Notes under the pieces: model-generated | The model's database searches: none | The model's input: the letters and a program-made list of their open reading frames with translations, nothing else | Told to the model about the DNA's origin: nothing | Part shown: positions 23,018 to 28,978 of the stretch, one piece after another | How positions within the stretch are numbered: position 1 is the stretch's first letter | Layout: each line of letters opens with the position of its first letter | NCBI GenBank assembly: GCA_048938385.1 | Contig: JBHLMG010000006.1 | Span: forward strand, 32,001 to 96,000 | Direction of reading: 5' to 3' | Source of the DNA: Promethearchaeota archaeon | GTDB lineage: Archaea; Asgardarchaeota; Hermodarchaeia; Hermodarchaeales; Hermodarchaeaceae | DNA: 64,000 nucleotides | Program-made: the position numbers and the translations under genes

Positions 23018-23073
23018 CCATAAATAGGAGTATGTGGTAAACATTTGTATGAACACACCTTCTGGTGATTAAG

Positions 23074-23667
23074 ATGGCAAATGAGGAAAAAGACTGGAAT
23101 GCTGAAGCTTCGAAAGTAACCAAGACCGTTCAAGATTTTGTAGAAGAGCTCGCAACGGCTGTTATGGAAGAGAGGCAACTTAGAGAGACTGCAGAAGCGC
23201 GGATAGAGGAACTCATGAAGGAGTTAGAGAGCAATAAATCCAAAGCCGAGCGGTTGCAGCGGACCGTCAATGAATTGAAAGTCTCTGCTGACGAGGGATC
23301 TAAACTCCAGACCGAAAATGAAGCCCTCCAATCTGAACTTAATGCCATCAAGACTCAGCTCGAGAAGATGTCGACTACTTACAAAGAATTAATTGCTGAA
23401 CAAGAAGCTACTATCCCTGTACAAGAGCTTCTGGCGTTATACATTGCTTTGCTCGAAGAAGTGTTCTTTGCTCAACCTCATGCCAAGACGCTCTTTCTGT
23501 TGCATGGCCGAAAGAAGCAAATGACCCGTGATGAAATTATTAAGACCGCAGGTCACGAAGCCACGGCAATTCGTAAAGCCTTAGGAGATTTATCCCGAGC
23601 TAACCTCATCGATTATGATGTTGAAAAGGGAAACGCTCAATTGAAGAAGCGCCTCTATCCAACCTAG
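23074..23667 (+). CDS. coiled-coil protein with C-terminal winged helix-turn-helix
   Basis: Heptad-rich N-half; C-terminal MTRDEII...AIRKALGDLSRANLIDYD. GGTGA RBS before ATG 23074. Confidence 0.7.
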   Translation: MANEEKDWNAEASKVTKTVQDFVEELATAVMEERQLRETAEARIEELMKELESNKSKAERLQRTVNELKVSADEGSKLQTENEALQSELNAIKTQLEKMSTTYKELIAEQEATIPVQELLALYIALLEEVFFAQPHAKTLFLLHGRKKQMTRDEIIKTAGHEATAIRKALGDLSRANLIDYDVEKGNAQLKKRLYPT

Positions 23668-24674
23668 ACTTTCAAATCGGTTAGCAATTGATTGAAGCGT
23701 GGAAGAGAATGAAGATTAGCGGTTAACGAGCACAAATACCGGCTGAGCTCAGCATTAATTATTCGTTCCAAATCAGAAAGGGTTTTACTGTCAGCTGCAC
23801 GGTCAACTAGTTCACTAGCGCTACGATAGATTACTCCGACTACACGTTTTTCAATAGTAGGCGGTCCCCAATCAAAGGATCGCAGAATCCGTTTAGCCTC
23901 GTTAAGACTCAATTTCACGGAATTCGCTCTGATGGCGTTAGCAAGTTGTTCGTAAAATTCCCCTGAAATGGTGACGATTTTAGTGCTTTCACGACTAGTC
24001 AGTTCTGTCCCCATTGTTCCTCTTCGGAGGAGTTCTTGCATCAGTCCAGCACAAGGCGCCTCAGCGAGGAAGCGACGGATTAAATCAAAGAATACCTGAC
24101 TGGCAATCTGAGTGACCTTTGCGATGACTTCACTGGGTTCACTGTACCGGAAGAGTTCACGACACGCTTCAAACCAGTAGTTTGGAAGAAGGATGTGGCT
24201 TCGACTAGAATATTTATCCAGCAGTTGCTGGATAGGAGGCAGGAGCTTATTGGGATCGTTGATGGAAAGGCGTCGCTGAAATGGTTTGCCGGTTAGTTCA
24301 GCAAGGTCTTGAGTCGCCTCGATCACTAATCGCTGTGCCGCAGCGATGGGTTCTCTAACATCAGTTGTTGATACTTTGGCTTTTCGCGAGGTTGCGAGCG
24401 AATCCAAGGCAGTTTCAATTCGACCAAGGTGAGTGAGAATAACTTTGATGGTATCATCCACGAAGGATGAGCCTGAGGTTGTGTTATCGTTTCTGGTATT
24501 TCCCAGTGCTTGTTTCACTGAATCATGAACAGCGCGAACACCGTTAGCGAGTTGATTAATTTGTCTAGGGCTTAAGTCACCTTCAGCCTCTAAGGTTATC
24601 AGGGCGTGAATGAGCGTGGAGTTTACTGTGGTAAGAATGAGAATGCGTTCCAGTAATTCTTCAGCTGTTATCAT
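23664..24674 (-). CDS. hypothetical alpha-helical protein (gene 3 of the tubulin-like operon)
   Basis: 336-aa ORF with GGAG RBS, 26 bp downstream of the GTPase gene; no recognised motif. Confidence 0.75.
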   Translation of the reverse strand: MITAEELLERILILTTVNSTLIHALITLEAEGDLSPRQINQLANGVRAVHDSVKQALGNTRNDNTTSGSSFVDDTIKVILTHLGRIETALDSLATSRKAKVSTTDVREPIAAAQRLVIEATQDLAELTGKPFQRRLSINDPNKLLPPIQQLLDKYSSRSHILLPNYWFEACRELFRYSEPSEVIAKVTQIASQVFFDLIRRFLAEAPCAGLMQELLRRGTMGTELTSRESTKIVTISGEFYEQLANAIRANSVKLSLNEAKRILRSFDWGPPTIEKRVVGVIYRSASELVDRAADSKTLSDLERIINAELSRYLCSLTANLHSLPRFNQLLTDLKV

Positions 24675-24700
24675 CCTATCTCCGCTCCACGCATTTGGAG

Positions 24701-26050
24701 CTACTTAAGTTCGAGATTGAAAAGCTCAGCTACATCACGAATAGCAGCCCGTAAGACTTCTTCAGTGACACCTTTTGATTTCTTGAACCACCCGCGACGA
24801 AGAGGCGAGGGGCCTGCGTGTAAATCGACAAGTTCAGTAGCAGAGTTAATTAGGTCTTCAATTTCAGGGAGTTGGGGTAGACCAAGGAGTAATAGCAAAT
24901 CAGAGGGGTGTGATTCATCCTCGAAGGAGACAAAGCAGGGAGTGATCGCGGCACCCTTTGCAGTGTATTTTCTTAGGGCTTCTTTGATATGCGGGTCGTA
25001 TTCTGCTCGGGCAAATTCACGATTTCCAGAGAAGTTATAATAGGTAGAAGAGGCGTTTGGTTCGTTTCCGATTTCAGCGAAGCTACAGTGCTCAACGGCG
25101 TATTTGACCATTGTTTTAAGCTGGGTAGGGATGTTTCCAGCTGAGGGAATAATACTGACATCGGTGTATAGACAGGGAACGACGATAGGGTCAAGTTTAC
25201 GAGCATAGTCGGCGATGTCGGTGGTGGGAAATACTTCCTTGCCTGGTTCATTGACACCTGGACTGAGCATGTGTTCGACAAACCGCAGAGCAAGAGGATT
25301 AACGAGTTCAACGAAAGCCGATTCTTGTGCTCTAGAAACCTCATTGGCCCCATCAACGGTGGAGGGAACCATTCCTTCGATATCTGTGACTTTCGCCACA
25401 TCGATCGAGAGTTGTCGTTGGAGGAAGTCAGCAACTTCGCCCTCACGCCATGCGAGGATTCGGCGCAACATAGCCCGGTTGCTCAAAAGGCAGACCAGAT
25501 CTGCACCGCGGTCTTCAAGTTGGCCACGGAGAAGCTTGGATAAGGACCACATAGTGTTGAGAGCTTCAGAGGTTTGGTCTTTGAAAGGCAACACGGTAAA
25601 AACATAGACGAAGATTCGGCGACCTTCTTCTTCTTGGAACCGTTCTTTGAGAATCTCAATAAGGGCAGGTGAACCACCACATCCTGTTCCACCACCTGAT
25701 GAGGTGAAGATGACAAATCCAGAGACGCCTTCAAAACCAAGTTGAGTAAGTTGGCCCATTATGACATCTTTAAAGTCGTGAACATAGTTGTACCCGTCAG
25801 TGAAGTTGCCTCCACAGCCAATGTCTGAGGCACCATAAAGTAGGGTATTTTCTTTGGGAATGTCATATTTTTGACGGAGTTTCTGGATGTCCGAACGGTC
25901 GGTATTCATACAGAGGTATCCTCGGATGCGTGGGGGTAACATGCGTTCCCGTGCCTGTTTTAAGTAAGCGCCCACAAGATTACTTCCGCATTCCCCAATG
26001 CCGATTGCGAAGACTTCCGCGACTCGTGGTGCTTCATCGGATGTTTCCAT
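24701..26050 (-). CDS. divergent tubulin/FtsZ-superfamily GTPase
   Basis: T1 GIGECGSN, T2 NTD, T3 GCGGNFTDG, signature SSGGGTGCG, T7-like TTDIADY. Confidence 0.9.
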   Translation of the reverse strand: METSDEAPRVAEVFAIGIGECGSNLVGAYLKQARERMLPPRIRGYLCMNTDRSDIQKLRQKYDIPKENTLLYGASDIGCGGNFTDGYNYVHDFKDVIMGQLTQLGFEGVSGFVIFTSSGGGTGCGGSPALIEILKERFQEEEGRRIFVYVFTVLPFKDQTSEALNTMWSLSKLLRGQLEDRGADLVCLLSNRAMLRRILAWREGEVADFLQRQLSIDVAKVTDIEGMVPSTVDGANEVSRAQESAFVELVNPLALRFVEHMLSPGVNEPGKEVFPTTDIADYARKLDPIVVPCLYTDVSIIPSAGNIPTQLKTMVKYAVEHCSFAEIGNEPNASSTYYNFSGNREFARAEYDPHIKEALRKYTAKGAAITPCFVSFEDESHPSDLLLLLGLPQLPEIEDLINSATELVDLHAGPSPLRRGWFKKSKGVTEEVLRAAIRDVAELFNLELK

Positions 26051-26079
26051 GGTTTCTCATTCCTTTTTTTCATTGGCTC

Positions 26080-28809
26080 CTATTTTTTCTTAGTCGTTTT
26101 TTTGGCTGTTTGCTGGGTTGTTTGTTCTCCTTTCTTATCAGCCATTACAGCGGCTAATTCACGAGCAGCCCATGAAAGATAGCTGGCAGTATCCTCACTG
26201 GTATAGGTTTCACGAATGCGTTTCTCAATTTCATTAAGTTGTCGATTTCGTTCAGCTTTTGGTGCTGCGGGGTTGTAATCTGCAAGGAAAATTCGTAAAG
26301 CTTTATGCCATTCATCTAGCTGCTTGATCCGATCCAGCCATTGATCCTCAAGGCTCCGAATGGTGGTGAAGATGTCTATCGCTTCTGGAAGGGAGTCTAT
26401 GCTTTCTAGTTTCTCACGCATGTTCTGCAGAGTCTCTAGGGGGAATATCATTTGGCTGAATTCACGGGGTCGAGCATCATAGACCCGTTTAATAGTCGAG
26501 TAATATTCGGTGGTGTTTTCTAGTAATTGTTCAAATGCTGAGGCCGTCTTTGCCTCCATGTTGCGAAGAATGTCCAAAACGCTGTTTTGTGCTTCAATTA
26601 AAGCCATGCTTATTTCCAAGACTTCTGTGACTTGTTCTGCAGCTAACGCATCTTGAACTCGGGCTAGAAGTGTCTTTAGTTTAACAACAATTTCTGCTTG
26701 ACCATGTCGTTCGAGGAGATCGGTAACAGAGTTGAGGTTGCCCCAAACCTCGTTGGCTTTCATTCGGATATCCTTGAGTAACTTCGGTTCGGTAAGTAAC
26801 TCCCGTAATTCATCAAACCGGTCAGGGAGCTCTTCGATATTTGCAGGGAGTTTCTCTTGGAGCTTGACTGATTTTTTCACATAACTATCAGTTTTGATAC
26901 CCAGGGTGGTAGAGACATTGGTCAGTTCAGAATATGCCTTGATTTGTTCATTGAGAGTTTGGTTGAAGTATCCAACAATCCGTTTTTCGAAGAGCTCGAC
27001 AATATGATGCGCCTTACGGATGGCTTCCTCGTATGTTTCGCTTGCAGGGACAACGCCTGTTAGCTCCTGAATAGCGGCTTGCACTTCTGAGGGGATAGTT
27101 AAGTTCATGCCTAATAATTTGGAGACAGCAAGGCGGAGTTTCAAATCTAACCGGTATTTGAGGTTCTCAATGGCATCTTGGGCTTTATAGAGGGCATCAC
27201 CTTGGGCTTCTCGCGCAACCGCTTCGATTTCTTCAAAACTCGTACTGTTTCGGATTTGACCAATTGCACTTTCCAAGAACTCTTCCATGGTTTTGAAGGA
27301 TTCCCGATAAGTGGGTTTAATGACTTGAATCTCAGCTAATAGGGCATTAAGTTCGCGTTCCCAAGCTTTTCGGAAGAGATCAATGCGGTTTTCAGCGTGT
27401 TTTTGAAGTCGTGCATAAGCTTCGACGAGTTCAGGAAAGGCGATATCAGTACTTCGAACGGGGGCAGGTGCGGCGCCCATGGTTGTTTTATCTAATATTG
27501 TGGTAGCTGTTTCTGAGATGCGGGTAAGGAGAGCTTCCTGCTCGCGAATTTCAGCTAATAACTTACCGTGTTCATCAATAATCTGAGCAGCCACTTCAGA
27601 ATATATTTTCACAAGGCTATTGAGGTCGGCTTTTTGGAGTTTTTTAGAGCTTCGTGCTACAAAGCCATCAAGTTCGTCAGTGTTTGGAAGAACCTTGCGT
27701 TTTACTGCTCGTGTTAACTCATCGATAATTCGCATAGTTTCACTACGAATTGCAGTTTCCACATTGGTGTTGTAGGCTTGTAAGCGTTCATAACTTGCAA
27801 TGAGGGTTGCTAAATCAGCATCTTTAGGAACTTCTGGTGGAGGTGGCGGCAAAAAACTGGCTTCTTTCGAGATATTGGCGGTTGCTAGGGTACGGTTGAG
27901 CGTGTGAGCGAATTCGAGTAATTGGCGTCGTACCTCACTTGAGGCTTTTAGGATTTGACCGTCATATTGCTGGACTAAGCCAAGTAACGTCGTTAGGTTG
28001 GCTTCGTCTTCCAGTTGTTTAAAGATAGCATCTAACGAGGTGGAAATTGCCATTGGTACATTCAGATTGAGGCCGCGTGCTGTTTCTAAAAGGGCAAGTG
28101 AGGATTCGATACTGCTTTGGAGTTTTGCTCGAAGCGTGTCGACAACTTCGCCTCGTCGACTGGTCAGATATTCATGTTCCTTACGGAGTGTTTTACGAAT
28201 TTCGAAAAGGTCCGGAATTGTATTAAAATCTACAACATCGCGTTCAGCACTAATTGACACATCACTAGTGTCAATACCCACGAAGCGATCATATGTTTTG
28301 ATTAACGCTTTATTACGCTCAAGCATGTCATTGGCTTGCTTAAGGAGCGCTTCACGAAGTTGTTTAGAAATTCCTTCGAGGTTTGATACAAACCGGGATA
28401 TTACCGGTAAAACTACAGTAAATCCGCCTTGGGTTGAAGGGAAGGATAGCCGGTTTAAATCGCGACCTAGCTTGAGGTCAAAGGTCATGATAGTTCCCTT
28501 CAAGTCTTCAAGTTCTGTCATGTAAGTGCGCAATAGTTCGATGTGAAGACGCAAGGCTCGTTGTAAATTATCTTGAATTTTAGGGATCCCAACTTCAATT
28601 TGTTTGGCTAGTCGTCGCTTCTTCAGGCCTAACGAAAAACTGGTTTTAGCGTCCCGATCAAACCCTTCTAGTGCTAAAAGTTCCCGTCCTACATCTTCCA
28701 TAGCCGTTTCTGCTTCCGAAGGCAAAACGCCCATGATAGTTCGACATTTTACGCTAATATCTTTGAGTGTTGAATAGGATTTACGCAGCTCTGCTATCGA
28801 TGTAGTCAC
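26080..28809 (-). CDS. 909-aa all-helical repeat/rod protein (gene 1 of the tubulin-like operon)
   Basis: Amphipathic helices throughout, Pro-rich linkers, basic C-tail, no TM segment or NTPase motif. GTG start after GGGGG. Confidence 0.8.
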   Translation of the reverse strand: MTTSIAELRKSYSTLKDISVKCRTIMGVLPSEAETAMEDVGRELLALEGFDRDAKTSFSLGLKKRRLAKQIEVGIPKIQDNLQRALRLHIELLRTYMTELEDLKGTIMTFDLKLGRDLNRLSFPSTQGGFTVVLPVISRFVSNLEGISKQLREALLKQANDMLERNKALIKTYDRFVGIDTSDVSISAERDVVDFNTIPDLFEIRKTLRKEHEYLTSRRGEVVDTLRAKLQSSIESSLALLETARGLNLNVPMAISTSLDAIFKQLEDEANLTTLLGLVQQYDGQILKASSEVRRQLLEFAHTLNRTLATANISKEASFLPPPPPEVPKDADLATLIASYERLQAYNTNVETAIRSETMRIIDELTRAVKRKVLPNTDELDGFVARSSKKLQKADLNSLVKIYSEVAAQIIDEHGKLLAEIREQEALLTRISETATTILDKTTMGAAPAPVRSTDIAFPELVEAYARLQKHAENRIDLFRKAWERELNALLAEIQVIKPTYRESFKTMEEFLESAIGQIRNSTSFEEIEAVAREAQGDALYKAQDAIENLKYRLDLKLRLAVSKLLGMNLTIPSEVQAAIQELTGVVPASETYEEAIRKAHHIVELFEKRIVGYFNQTLNEQIKAYSELTNVSTTLGIKTDSYVKKSVKLQEKLPANIEELPDRFDELRELLTEPKLLKDIRMKANEVWGNLNSVTDLLERHGQAEIVVKLKTLLARVQDALAAEQVTEVLEISMALIEAQNSVLDILRNMEAKTASAFEQLLENTTEYYSTIKRVYDARPREFSQMIFPLETLQNMREKLESIDSLPEAIDIFTTIRSLEDQWLDRIKQLDEWHKALRIFLADYNPAAPKAERNRQLNEIEKRIRETYTSEDTASYLSWAARELAAVMADKKGEQTTQQTAKKTTKKK

Positions 28810-28978
28810 TTTTCAGCCCCCAGGGTAAGTGGCTTACACTCACTTCTTTAACCATTGGGAAGTGTATTCTTAACTCTTTTGAGCGGACACAGATTTCTAT
28901 TACAAGAACTAAATTAAAGTCAAAGCCCCTATTTCTCAACCTTCACCAATAATACCAAATAAAGATGGGACAACGGTT

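What the first reader, a model, noticed from the sequence alone, without database searches (positions are those of the whole stretch)
23664..28809. Candidate undescribed cytoskeletal system: rod protein + divergent tubulin-like GTPase + helical partner in one operon
Seen: three co-oriented genes (909, 449 and 336 aa) with 29- and 26-bp gaps, RBS-like elements and a divergent promoter region shared with map. The middle gene has all tubulin/FtsZ GTP-binding loops, and both flanking genes are soluble all-helical proteins with no recognisable family motif. Established: FtsZ, CetZ, TubZ (with TubR) and the vWA-associated FtsZ-like families have different neighbourhoods. Inference: a self-contained filament module in which the rod protein bundles, anchors or nucleates the polymer and the 336-aa protein caps or adapts it.
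Basis: partly seen in the sequence, partly recalled or inferred. Interest (0 to 1): 0.88.

Follow-up and report, generated by a model that had tools for sequence, protein, structure and literature searches.

The report
Asgard tubulin-like three-gene operon
An Asgard archaeon carries a tight three-gene operon in which a divergent tubulin/FtsZ-type GTPase of the named but unstudied "Asg.Tub" group sits between two unknown helical proteins; the trio is inherited together in about a third of Asgard genomes, so it is probably an untested filament system in close archaeal relatives of eukaryotes.

Summary
Three co-oriented minus-strand genes (909, 449 and 336 aa; gaps of 29 and 26 bp) lie at 23664-28809, divergent from an M24 (map-like) peptidase gene.

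The middle protein is a tubulin/FtsZ-superfamily GTPase. It has intact nucleotide loops and an invariant T7 pair, D278 and D281. It belongs to "Asg.Tub", a CetZ-like Asgard clade named in 2023 (PMC9871819), so the GTPase is not new. In my tree it lies outside canonical CetZ and FtsZ.

The trio is strictly conserved, and I found no paper describing that. Of 400 Asgard genomes, 126 carry the GTPase, 129 the large protein and 123 the small one. They fall in the same genome families, almost always adjacent and in the same order. Carriers checked still have FtsZ genes as well.

Both partners are soluble, all-helical and found only in Asgard archaea. They match no Pfam family and no convincing known fold. 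The large one is a long helical rod. The small one has a three-helix bundle, a linker and a compact helical domain.

A GTP-driven filament with two dedicated partners is the best reading, but binding and function are untested. This scan reached the same conclusion on at least eight other genomes.

The parts
26080..28809 (-). Gene 1: 909-aa all-helical rod protein, the large partner. Start is GTG at 28809; an in-frame ATG at 28734 is the start implied by an 884-aa database record.
   Evidence: ORF and translation. AF2 model has pLDDT 84 and pTM 0.38 and consists only of helices, many 38-47 residues long. No Pfam or NCBIfam family. Homologues lie directly upstream of the GTPase in 129 of 400 Asgard genomes. 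W834, H835, Y877, L878 and F505 are invariant in 27 sequences.
26051..26079 (-). 29-bp spacer between gene 1 and gene 2, with a purine-rich GGAG...AGGAATGAG stretch.
   Evidence: Sequence read directly.
24701..26050 (-). Gene 2: 449-aa tubulin/FtsZ-superfamily GTPase of the Asg.Tub clade.
   Evidence: Pfam PF00091, E 2.9e-18. Best solved relative by sequence is CetZ1 4b46, E 2.7e-9 for the single sequence and 3.6e-13 for the profile. It is 50% identical to OLS26264.1, a founding member of Asg.Tub. The clade has 97/97 support in my tree.
25979..26002 (-). T1 loop codons (G17-N24, GIGECGSN).
   Evidence: G17, G19, E20, G22 and N24 are invariant in 29 family members.
25676..25696 (-). T4 tubulin signature codons (G119-G125, GGGTGCG, with Cys where tubulin and CetZ have Ser).
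   Evidence: All seven positions are invariant. They align to GGGTGSG of CetZ.
25325..25453 (-). Family-specific insertion of about 40 residues between N191 (LLSN) and helix H7 (residues about 200-242).
   Evidence: Present in Asg.Tub rows and absent from canonical CetZ rows of alignment A6. It is the least conserved part of the protein.
25208..25219 (-). T7 loop catalytic pair codons (D278-I-A-D281).
   Evidence: D278 and D281 are invariant in 29 sequences. They align to the D..E pair of the T7 loop of CetZ1-like proteins.
24675..24700 (-). 26-bp spacer between gene 2 and gene 3, with GGAGCGGAGATAGG before the ATG.
   Evidence: Sequence read directly.
23664..24674 (-). Gene 3: 336-aa helical protein, the small partner. 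It has an N-terminal three-helix bundle (1-100), a low-confidence linker (102-128) and a compact helical domain (130-336).
   Evidence: ORF and translation. AF2 model has pLDDT 81, above 90 for residues 130-336. No family. Homologues lie directly downstream of the GTPase in 123 of 400 Asgard genomes. D140, P164, P207, L211, G270, E275, R277 and K335 are invariant.
28810..28978 (.). 169-bp A+T-rich divergent intergenic region shared with the M24 peptidase gene. It is the presumed promoter region of the operon; this is inferred, not tested.
   Evidence: Sequence. The neighbouring gene has Pfam Peptidase_M24.

Best explanation
This is one copy of a conserved, vertically inherited three-gene module specific to Asgard archaea. 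The core is an Asg.Tub protein, a tubulin/FtsZ-superfamily GTPase. It keeps every nucleotide-binding loop and both acidic T7 residues that, in FtsZ, CetZ and tubulin, complete the active site of the next subunit. It therefore most likely forms GTP-dependent, GTP-hydrolysing head-to-tail protofilaments (inferred from motifs, not shown). The two co-transcribed helical proteins are its dedicated partners (inferred from strict co-occurrence, fixed order and tight spacing). The 900-1185-aa rod would lie along or between filaments as a scaffold or cross-linker, and its length varies by lineage. The 300-380-aa protein would act as an adaptor, using a compact conserved domain tethered to a three-helix bundle. 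Shown here: the genes, the motifs, the family placement, the synteny, and the helical, soluble nature of the partners. Inferred: polymerisation, partner binding and the cellular role. The role is an accessory cytoskeletal function alongside FtsZ, not a replacement for it.
For: Superfamily membership rests on Pfam Tubulin at 67.3 bits, and the best solved relatives by sequence are the CetZ structures 4b46, 3zid and 4b45. In 29 sequences spanning 42-100% identity, T1, T4, N191 and T7 D278/D281 are invariant. The T7 pair aligns with the D..E pair of CetZ1-like proteins. P0002 belongs to Asg.Tub: it is 50% identical (E 9.5e-142) to OLS26264.1, which is in the published Asg.Tub alignment. The family is sharply separated from other proteins. 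In 1.84 billion representatives, members score 622 bits or more, the next full-length relative 167 bits, and all others 84 bits or less. Of 400 Asgard genomes, 126 have the GTPase, 123 the small partner and 129 the large partner. All fall in the same genome families, with 0 of 135 and 0 of 31 in the two largest non-carrier families, and each is found in 32 of the 90 high-quality genomes. In 19 of 20 fetched loci the order is large, GTPase, small on one strand. The partners are homologous across lineages: BLASTP 1e-30 and 1e-17 between this genome and a Heimdall-type locus. One copy per genome and a gene tree that groups sequences by genome family fit vertical inheritance. All five carriers checked also keep one or two FtsZ genes. 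No partner matches any defence-system model.
Against: No experiment or expression data exist for any member. The partners match no family or fold that would tie them to filaments: the best fold matches are generic helical bundles. Operon-mates need not bind each other. In one genome family a second copy of the large-protein and GTPase pair has no small-partner gene beside it, so the small partner is not always required next to the GTPase. A few genomes have 4-10 kb inserted between module genes.
Confidence: 0.6

Rival explanations
1. The module is a DNA or large-cargo segregation machine of the TubZ/TubR/TubY or PhuZ kind. The GTPase filament would push or pull a cargo, and the small partner would be the cargo adaptor.
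For: Three-component tubulin-like systems with a filament, an adaptor and a modulator are the known pattern of type III partition (PMC7762940, listed). The nearest outlier of the family, P0197, sits five genes downstream of an SMC-ScpA pair on its contig.
Against: No helix-turn-helix or other DNA-binding family was found in either partner or in their 25-27 homologues. The module is chromosomal, single-copy and vertically inherited, not on plasmid- or virus-like DNA. The SMC neighbourhood is a single contig and lacks the large partner.
Confidence: 0.12
2. The GTPase does not make a cytoskeletal polymer. It would act as a GTP-regulated subunit of a discrete soluble complex with the two helical proteins, in the manner of a switch or an assembly factor.
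For: Sequence conservation is very high across the whole protein: mean column identity is 61%, against 31-35% for the partners. That would suit a protein with many fixed contacts. The protein also has a family-specific C-terminal region with invariant W421, F422, K426 and G427 and a family-specific insertion.
Against: The T7 acidic pair only makes sense as the part that completes a neighbouring subunit's GTPase site, and it is invariant. From established knowledge, every characterised superfamily member with intact T1-T7 loops polymerises.
Confidence: 0.15
3. The module is a cell-shape or membrane-remodelling system that works like CetZ, with the partners linking filaments to the envelope.
For: CetZ structures are the closest solved relatives by sequence. 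The clade groups with other CetZ-like orphan clades rather than with FtsZ (published tree).
Against: None of the three proteins has a membrane span or an evident hydrophobic anchor. The basic tail of the 909-aa protein is not conserved. The gene neighbourhood differs from that of CetZ (PMC9871819).
Confidence: 0.13

Closest known systems
Asg.Tub, the 'CetZ-like group in Asgardarchaeota' (Santana-Molina, del Saz-Navarro and Devos 2023, PMC9871819), also called the 'CetZ-related Asgard archaeal clade' in bioRxiv 10.64898/2026.02.15.705738
   Same: The GTPase is a member. It is 50% identical to founding member OLS26264.1. It has the same C-terminal blocks (FVELVNPLA..MLSPGV, PTTD.AD.A.KLD, LHSG.S.LK..WF.RSKG) and falls in one well-supported clade.
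   Different: The paper had four sequences. It treated the clade only phylogenetically and said only that neighbours are unknown genes, mostly with coiled coils. It did not report a conserved trio, homology of the partners across lineages, or their co-distribution.
CetZ (archaeal cell-shape tubulin-like proteins; structures 4b46, 4b45, 3zid)
   Same: They share the superfamily, are the closest solved sequences (E 3.6e-13 with the family profile), and align in the T1, T4 and T7 loops.
   Different: The protein lies outside the canonical CetZ clade, which has 99/96 support. It is about 21-23% identical to CetZ. It has an extra insertion of about 40 residues before H7, Cys in the signature loop and a different C-terminal region. 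Its gene neighbourhood is also different.
FtsZ with its helical regulators (EzrA, ZapA, SepF), and eukaryotic MAP65/PRC1 cross-linkers
   Different: All these matches fall in the range expected for any long helical protein. No sequence family match exists, and unlike EzrA the rod has no membrane span. The similarity is one of shape only, not of membership.
TubZ-TubR-TubY and BtubA/B-BtubC operons
   Same: A tubulin-superfamily GTPase is encoded with dedicated accessory proteins in one operon.
   Different: The partners are unrelated. No DNA-binding domain, no TPR 'kinesin light chain' protein and no plasmid or phage context was found.

Membership tests
Tubulin/FtsZ superfamily | Match to the GTPase domain model PF00091 above its gathering score | tested here: met
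   67.3 bits against a cut-off of 33, residues 12-195.
Tubulin/FtsZ superfamily | Glycine-rich T1 loop and the T4 signature GGGTG(S/T)G | tested here: met
   GIGECGSN and GGGTGCG are invariant in 29 members. Cys replaces Ser/Thr.
Tubulin/FtsZ superfamily | T7 loop with acidic residues that activate hydrolysis in the adjoining subunit | tested here: met
   D278 and D281 are invariant and align with the D..E pair of CetZ1-like sequences. Their activity was not tested.
Asg.Tub (Santana-Molina et al. 2023) | Groups in one clade with the published members, and the published C-terminal blocks are alignable | tested here: met
   OLS26264.1 = P0108. The clade has 97/97 support. The C-terminal motifs are visible in the published alignment and in A5.
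Canonical CetZ | Falls inside the clade holding CetZ1/CetZ2-type proteins | tested here: not met
   Twelve CetZ rows form a 99/96 clade that excludes Asg.Tub. Two of them were labelled directly by their PDB hits (P0213, E 3e-113 to 4b46; P0239, E 6e-41); the other ten were chosen because they grouped with these in the earlier 114-row tree.
FtsZ | Reaches the NCBIfam ftsZ equivalog score (TIGR00065) | tested here: not met
   25.6 bits against a cut-off of 295.2. A separate true FtsZ lies on contig C23 of the same genome.
Eukaryote-type tubulins (alpha/beta/gamma, OdinTubulin, AtubA/B, BtubA/B) | Clade membership and a tubulin-type C-terminal domain | tested here: inconclusive
   Only N-terminal-domain matches at E about 1e-5 to 1e-6. 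Pfam Tubulin_C was not listed at E up to 1. No tubulins were in my tree. The published trees place the clade outside tubulins plus artubulins.
TubZ-type partition system | An adjacent DNA-binding adaptor (TubR-like winged helix) and a plasmid or phage location | tested here: inconclusive
   No DNA-binding family in either partner or its homologues. The context is chromosomal. DNA binding was not tested.
EzrA / spectrin-like or PRC1/MAP65 rods (for the 909-aa protein) | Family model match, or a fold match well above the background for helical proteins | tested here: inconclusive

The most novel reading that the evidence does not exclude
Asg.Tub, the rod and the adaptor together form a third tubulin-superfamily cytoskeleton that is specific to Asgard archaea, alongside FtsZ and the Atub/Odin tubulins. 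On this reading its rod protein binds along or between filaments as a true filament-associated cross-linker or ruler. That would make it a prokaryotic counterpart of microtubule-associated proteins, present in Thor- and Heimdall/Hod-type lineages close to the eukaryotic stem.
Probability: 0.2. Interest if true: 0.85.

Novelty: new variant of a known kind. Interest (0 to 1): 0.62.

Why it matters
[quoted passage not shown] Work so far has dealt with Asgard actins, FtsZ1/2 and the eukaryote-like tubulins (OdinTubulin, AtubA/B). This module is a further tubulin-family system, present in about a third of sampled Asgard genomes and nearly universal in Thor-type ones. It has two dedicated partners of unknown fold family. 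That gives a defined three-protein set that can be expressed and imaged, and it could reveal a new way of organising a tubulin-like polymer.

Tried and rejected
Complex prediction. I folded residues 700-909 of the rod, the whole small partner and the GTPase together. The tool's verdict was 'no answer', because a control with the small partner replaced scored too close to the real set. This counts neither for nor against binding.

Expression. No RNA run was listed for the operon.

Fold searches.
- Foldseek against PDB gave nothing below E 0.05 for either partner.
- The VIA-align wide search gave only generic helical-bundle matches, and for the small partner the list was filled by the N-terminal bundle.
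- The ESM Atlas shape search gave TM 0.31 or less by query.
- The Atlas feature search gave only the protein's own Thorarchaeota cluster, or nothing.
I do not claim a new fold.

Internal repeats in the rod. hhalign between eight segments gave at best 44% probability (326-445 against 450-570). A spectrin-like repeat build is suggested by the helix pattern but not shown by sequence.

Partners of other orphan CetZ-like clades. The Bathyarchaeota locus L029, the haloarchaeal-type locus L030 and the P0197 locus L027 showed no credible homology to either partner, with hhalign probabilities of 0.3-14%.

Defence or mobile element. No PADLOC match, and inheritance looks vertical.

The fourth gene (200-aa ORF at 23065-23667). 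It is adjacent only within this genome's own family and lies elsewhere in three other carrier families, so it is not part of the module.

Trees. The C20 mixture-model tree of 114 rows did not finish. The trees reported use LG+G4.
Full report
**Observation.** The window holds three co-oriented minus-strand ORFs: 26080-28809 (909 aa, GTG start), 24701-26050 (449 aa) and 23664-24674 (336 aa). The spacers are 29 and 26 bp, and each has a purine-rich stretch just before the start codon. Upstream, 169 bp separate the operon from a divergent gene with Pfam Peptidase_M24. The finding's description is correct in every checked detail. A database record of the large protein starts 25 residues later (884 aa). 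However, the extra N-terminal residues align with homologues and are modelled as a confident helix, so the GTG start is plausible.

**The GTPase.**
- P0002 matches Pfam Tubulin at 67.3 bits against a cut-off of 33. It falls far below the NCBIfam FtsZ equivalog (25.6 against 295 bits).
- Its best solved relatives by sequence are the CetZ structures 4b46, 3zid and 4b45, followed by tubulins at E about 1e-6. These matches cover the N-terminal domain only.
- In an alignment of 29 family members spanning 42-100% identity, the following are invariant: T1 (G17, G19, E20, G22, N24), the signature G119-G125 (GGGTGCG), N191, and D278 and D281.
- Aligned with CetZ1-like proteins, TTD278-I-A-D281 falls on the D..E pair of the T7 loop. 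In CetZ1 this glutamate is the residue mutated to block hydrolysis (my own knowledge of Duggin et al. 2015, not checked here).
- The protein thus keeps what a polymerising, hydrolysing member of the superfamily needs.
- Family-specific features are a Cys in the signature loop, an insertion of about 40 residues before H7, and a conserved C-terminal region with invariant W421, F422, K426 and G427.

**Family placement.**
- Homologues are abundant and come only from Asgard-labelled MAGs: Thor-, Heimdall-, Hod- and Hermodarchaeota, Asgardarchaeia and 'Promethearchaeota'.
- One of them, P0108, is OLS26264.1. That sequence is one of four in the published 'Asg.Tub' C-terminal alignment of Santana-Molina et al. 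2023. P0002 is therefore an Asg.Tub protein.
- The paper describes the group as a novel CetZ-like clade of unstable position between CetZ and tubulins. It notes that the neighbourhood holds unknown genes, mostly with coiled coils. Its tree shows a fully supported clade on a long stem, weakly (62) sister to a haloarchaeal group.
- A full-text search for 'Asg.Tub' returns only the 2023 paper.
- In a profile search of 1.84 billion representatives, family members score 622 bits or more, one outlier (P0197) scores 167 bits, and everything else 84 bits or less.
- In my 45-row maximum-likelihood tree (LG+G4), Asg.Tub is a clade with 97/97 support. P0197 plus P0205 are its sister (100/98).
- Next out is a clade whose one examined locus has tandem tubulin-like genes and haloarchaeal-type domains of unknown function (90/97). 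This is probably the paper's Halo.Tub.
- The canonical CetZ rows form a separate clade with 99/96 support. Two of them were labelled directly by strong hits to 4b46.
No eukaryote-type tubulins were in my tree.

**Synteny.**
- Three loci from distant lineages showed the same pattern: a large protein with no Pfam family, then the GTPase, then a protein of about 300-360 aa with no Pfam family.
- The flanking proteins are true homologues. BLASTP of this genome's proteins against a Heimdall-type locus gives 1e-30 and 1e-17, at 20-29% identity.
- Across 400 Asgard genomes, the GTPase is found in 126, the small partner in 123 and the large partner in 129. Each is found in 32 of the 90 high-quality genomes.
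- The carrier families are identical for all three proteins. The two largest non-carrier families have none of them (0 of 135 and 0 of 31).
- The coordinates show the three genes side by side on one strand in nearly every genome where the contig allows it.
- Of 20 loci fetched, 19 have the full trio in the same order.
- Exceptions are a few genomes with 4-10 kb inserted between module genes. One genome family (g21; large protein 1170-1185 aa) also carries a second paralogous pair of large protein and GTPase, with no small partner beside it.
- The downstream 200-aa ORF at 23065-23667 is adjacent only within this genome's own family. It does not belong to the module.
- All five carriers checked also have one or two FtsZ genes, so the module is an addition and not a substitute.

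**The partners.**
- The 909-aa protein is modelled with pLDDT 84 but pTM 0.38. The model is built entirely of helices, many of 38-47 residues, in a recurring long-short-long pattern. That fits an extended rod of helical bundles.
- Its length varies by lineage from about 870 to 1185 aa.
- The most conserved stretches are around residues 541-570 and in the C-terminal 100 residues, which hold W834, H835, Y877 and L878.
- The 336-aa protein has a three-helix bundle (1-100), a low-confidence linker (102-128) and a compact helical domain (130-336) with pLDDT above 90. Its invariant residues cluster in that domain.
- Neither protein has a membrane-span-like segment, a Pfam or NCBIfam family or a defence-system match.
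- Fold searches returned only the kind of matches that any long helical protein gets. An EzrA cluster and PRC1 appear among the weak matches for the rod. That is a resemblance of shape only.
- Both partners evolve much faster than the GTPase, with mean column identity of 31-35% against 61%.
- The unknown neighbours of other orphan CetZ-like clades are not detectably related to them.

**Mechanism.**
- Shown: an intact tubulin-superfamily GTPase with a conserved catalytic T7 pair; two Asgard-only helical proteins inherited with it in a fixed order and close spacing; one copy per genome (two in one family); and a gene tree that follows the genome families.
- Inferred: the GTPase forms dynamic GTP-dependent protofilaments; the rod and the small protein bind it, as scaffold or cross-linker and as adaptor; and the system serves an accessory cytoskeletal role beside FtsZ.
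- I put 0.6 on this general reading. Any specific role (segregation, shape, positioning) gets much less.
- The single complex prediction gave no verdict, and no RNA run was listed. Neither is used as evidence.

**Novelty.** The GTPase clade is already in the literature, and tubulin-family systems with accessory proteins are a known kind. I did not find the following described in the papers I could search: the conserved trio, the cross-lineage homology and co-distribution of the two partners, and the paralogous pair in one family. I therefore rate this a new variant of a known kind. The same trio was reported by this scan from at least eight other genomes, with the same conclusion and the same closest-known reference. 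My analysis was done before I read those notes and agrees with them.

Noticed in passing
L023 (G067:C1:2895000-2902800); also for genus g21: Genomes of one Heimdall/Hod-type family carry a second, paralogous pair of large helical protein (about 1140 aa) and Asg.Tub GTPase with no small-partner gene beside it. In L023 the convergent neighbour is a 739-aa protein with a Gtr1/RagA-Arf type GTPase domain.
   Followed up: partly
L027:8001-10149 (Logan contig from SRR7811641): P0197, a 457-aa protein 28% identical to the window's GTPase, forms with P0205 the sister group of Asg.Tub. It has an overlapping downstream 262-aa unknown gene but no large partner. An SMC-ScpA pair lies five genes upstream. 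Its downstream gene gave only a 14% hhalign match to the small partner, at an F-W motif.
   Followed up: partly
G000:C23:53390-53869 (L001): Only one FtsZ was found in the window's own genome (about 90% complete), whereas four of the five other carriers checked have two.
   Followed up: partly
window 23065-23667 (+): A 200-aa ORF with no Pfam family converges on the operon and overlaps its last gene by 4 bp. Homologues are adjacent to the module only within this genome's own family and lie on other contigs in three other carrier families.
   Followed up: yes
L030:2328-15233 (JGI metagenome contig): Another orphan CetZ-like clade, probably the published Halo.Tub, sits in a long co-directional gene row with two tubulin-like genes and several large proteins (369-1033 aa) with little or no Pfam annotation.
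   Followed up: partly
L029:7001-10536 (Bathyarchaeota-labelled relatives): A 610-aa tubulin-like protein is followed at a 2-bp gap by a 566-aa unknown protein, set among purine-biosynthesis genes. It is another uncharacterised tubulin-like pair.
   Followed up: no
G387:C69, G058:C96, G061:C230 (coordinates): In these genomes 4-10 kb separate two genes of the module that are otherwise adjacent, which suggests insertions into the operon.
   Followed up: no
L006:4532-5113 and L003:102-1037: Small Arf/Ras/Roc-family GTPase genes lie just upstream of the module in one locus and four genes upstream in another. Such genes are common in Asgard genomes, so this may be chance.
   Followed up: no
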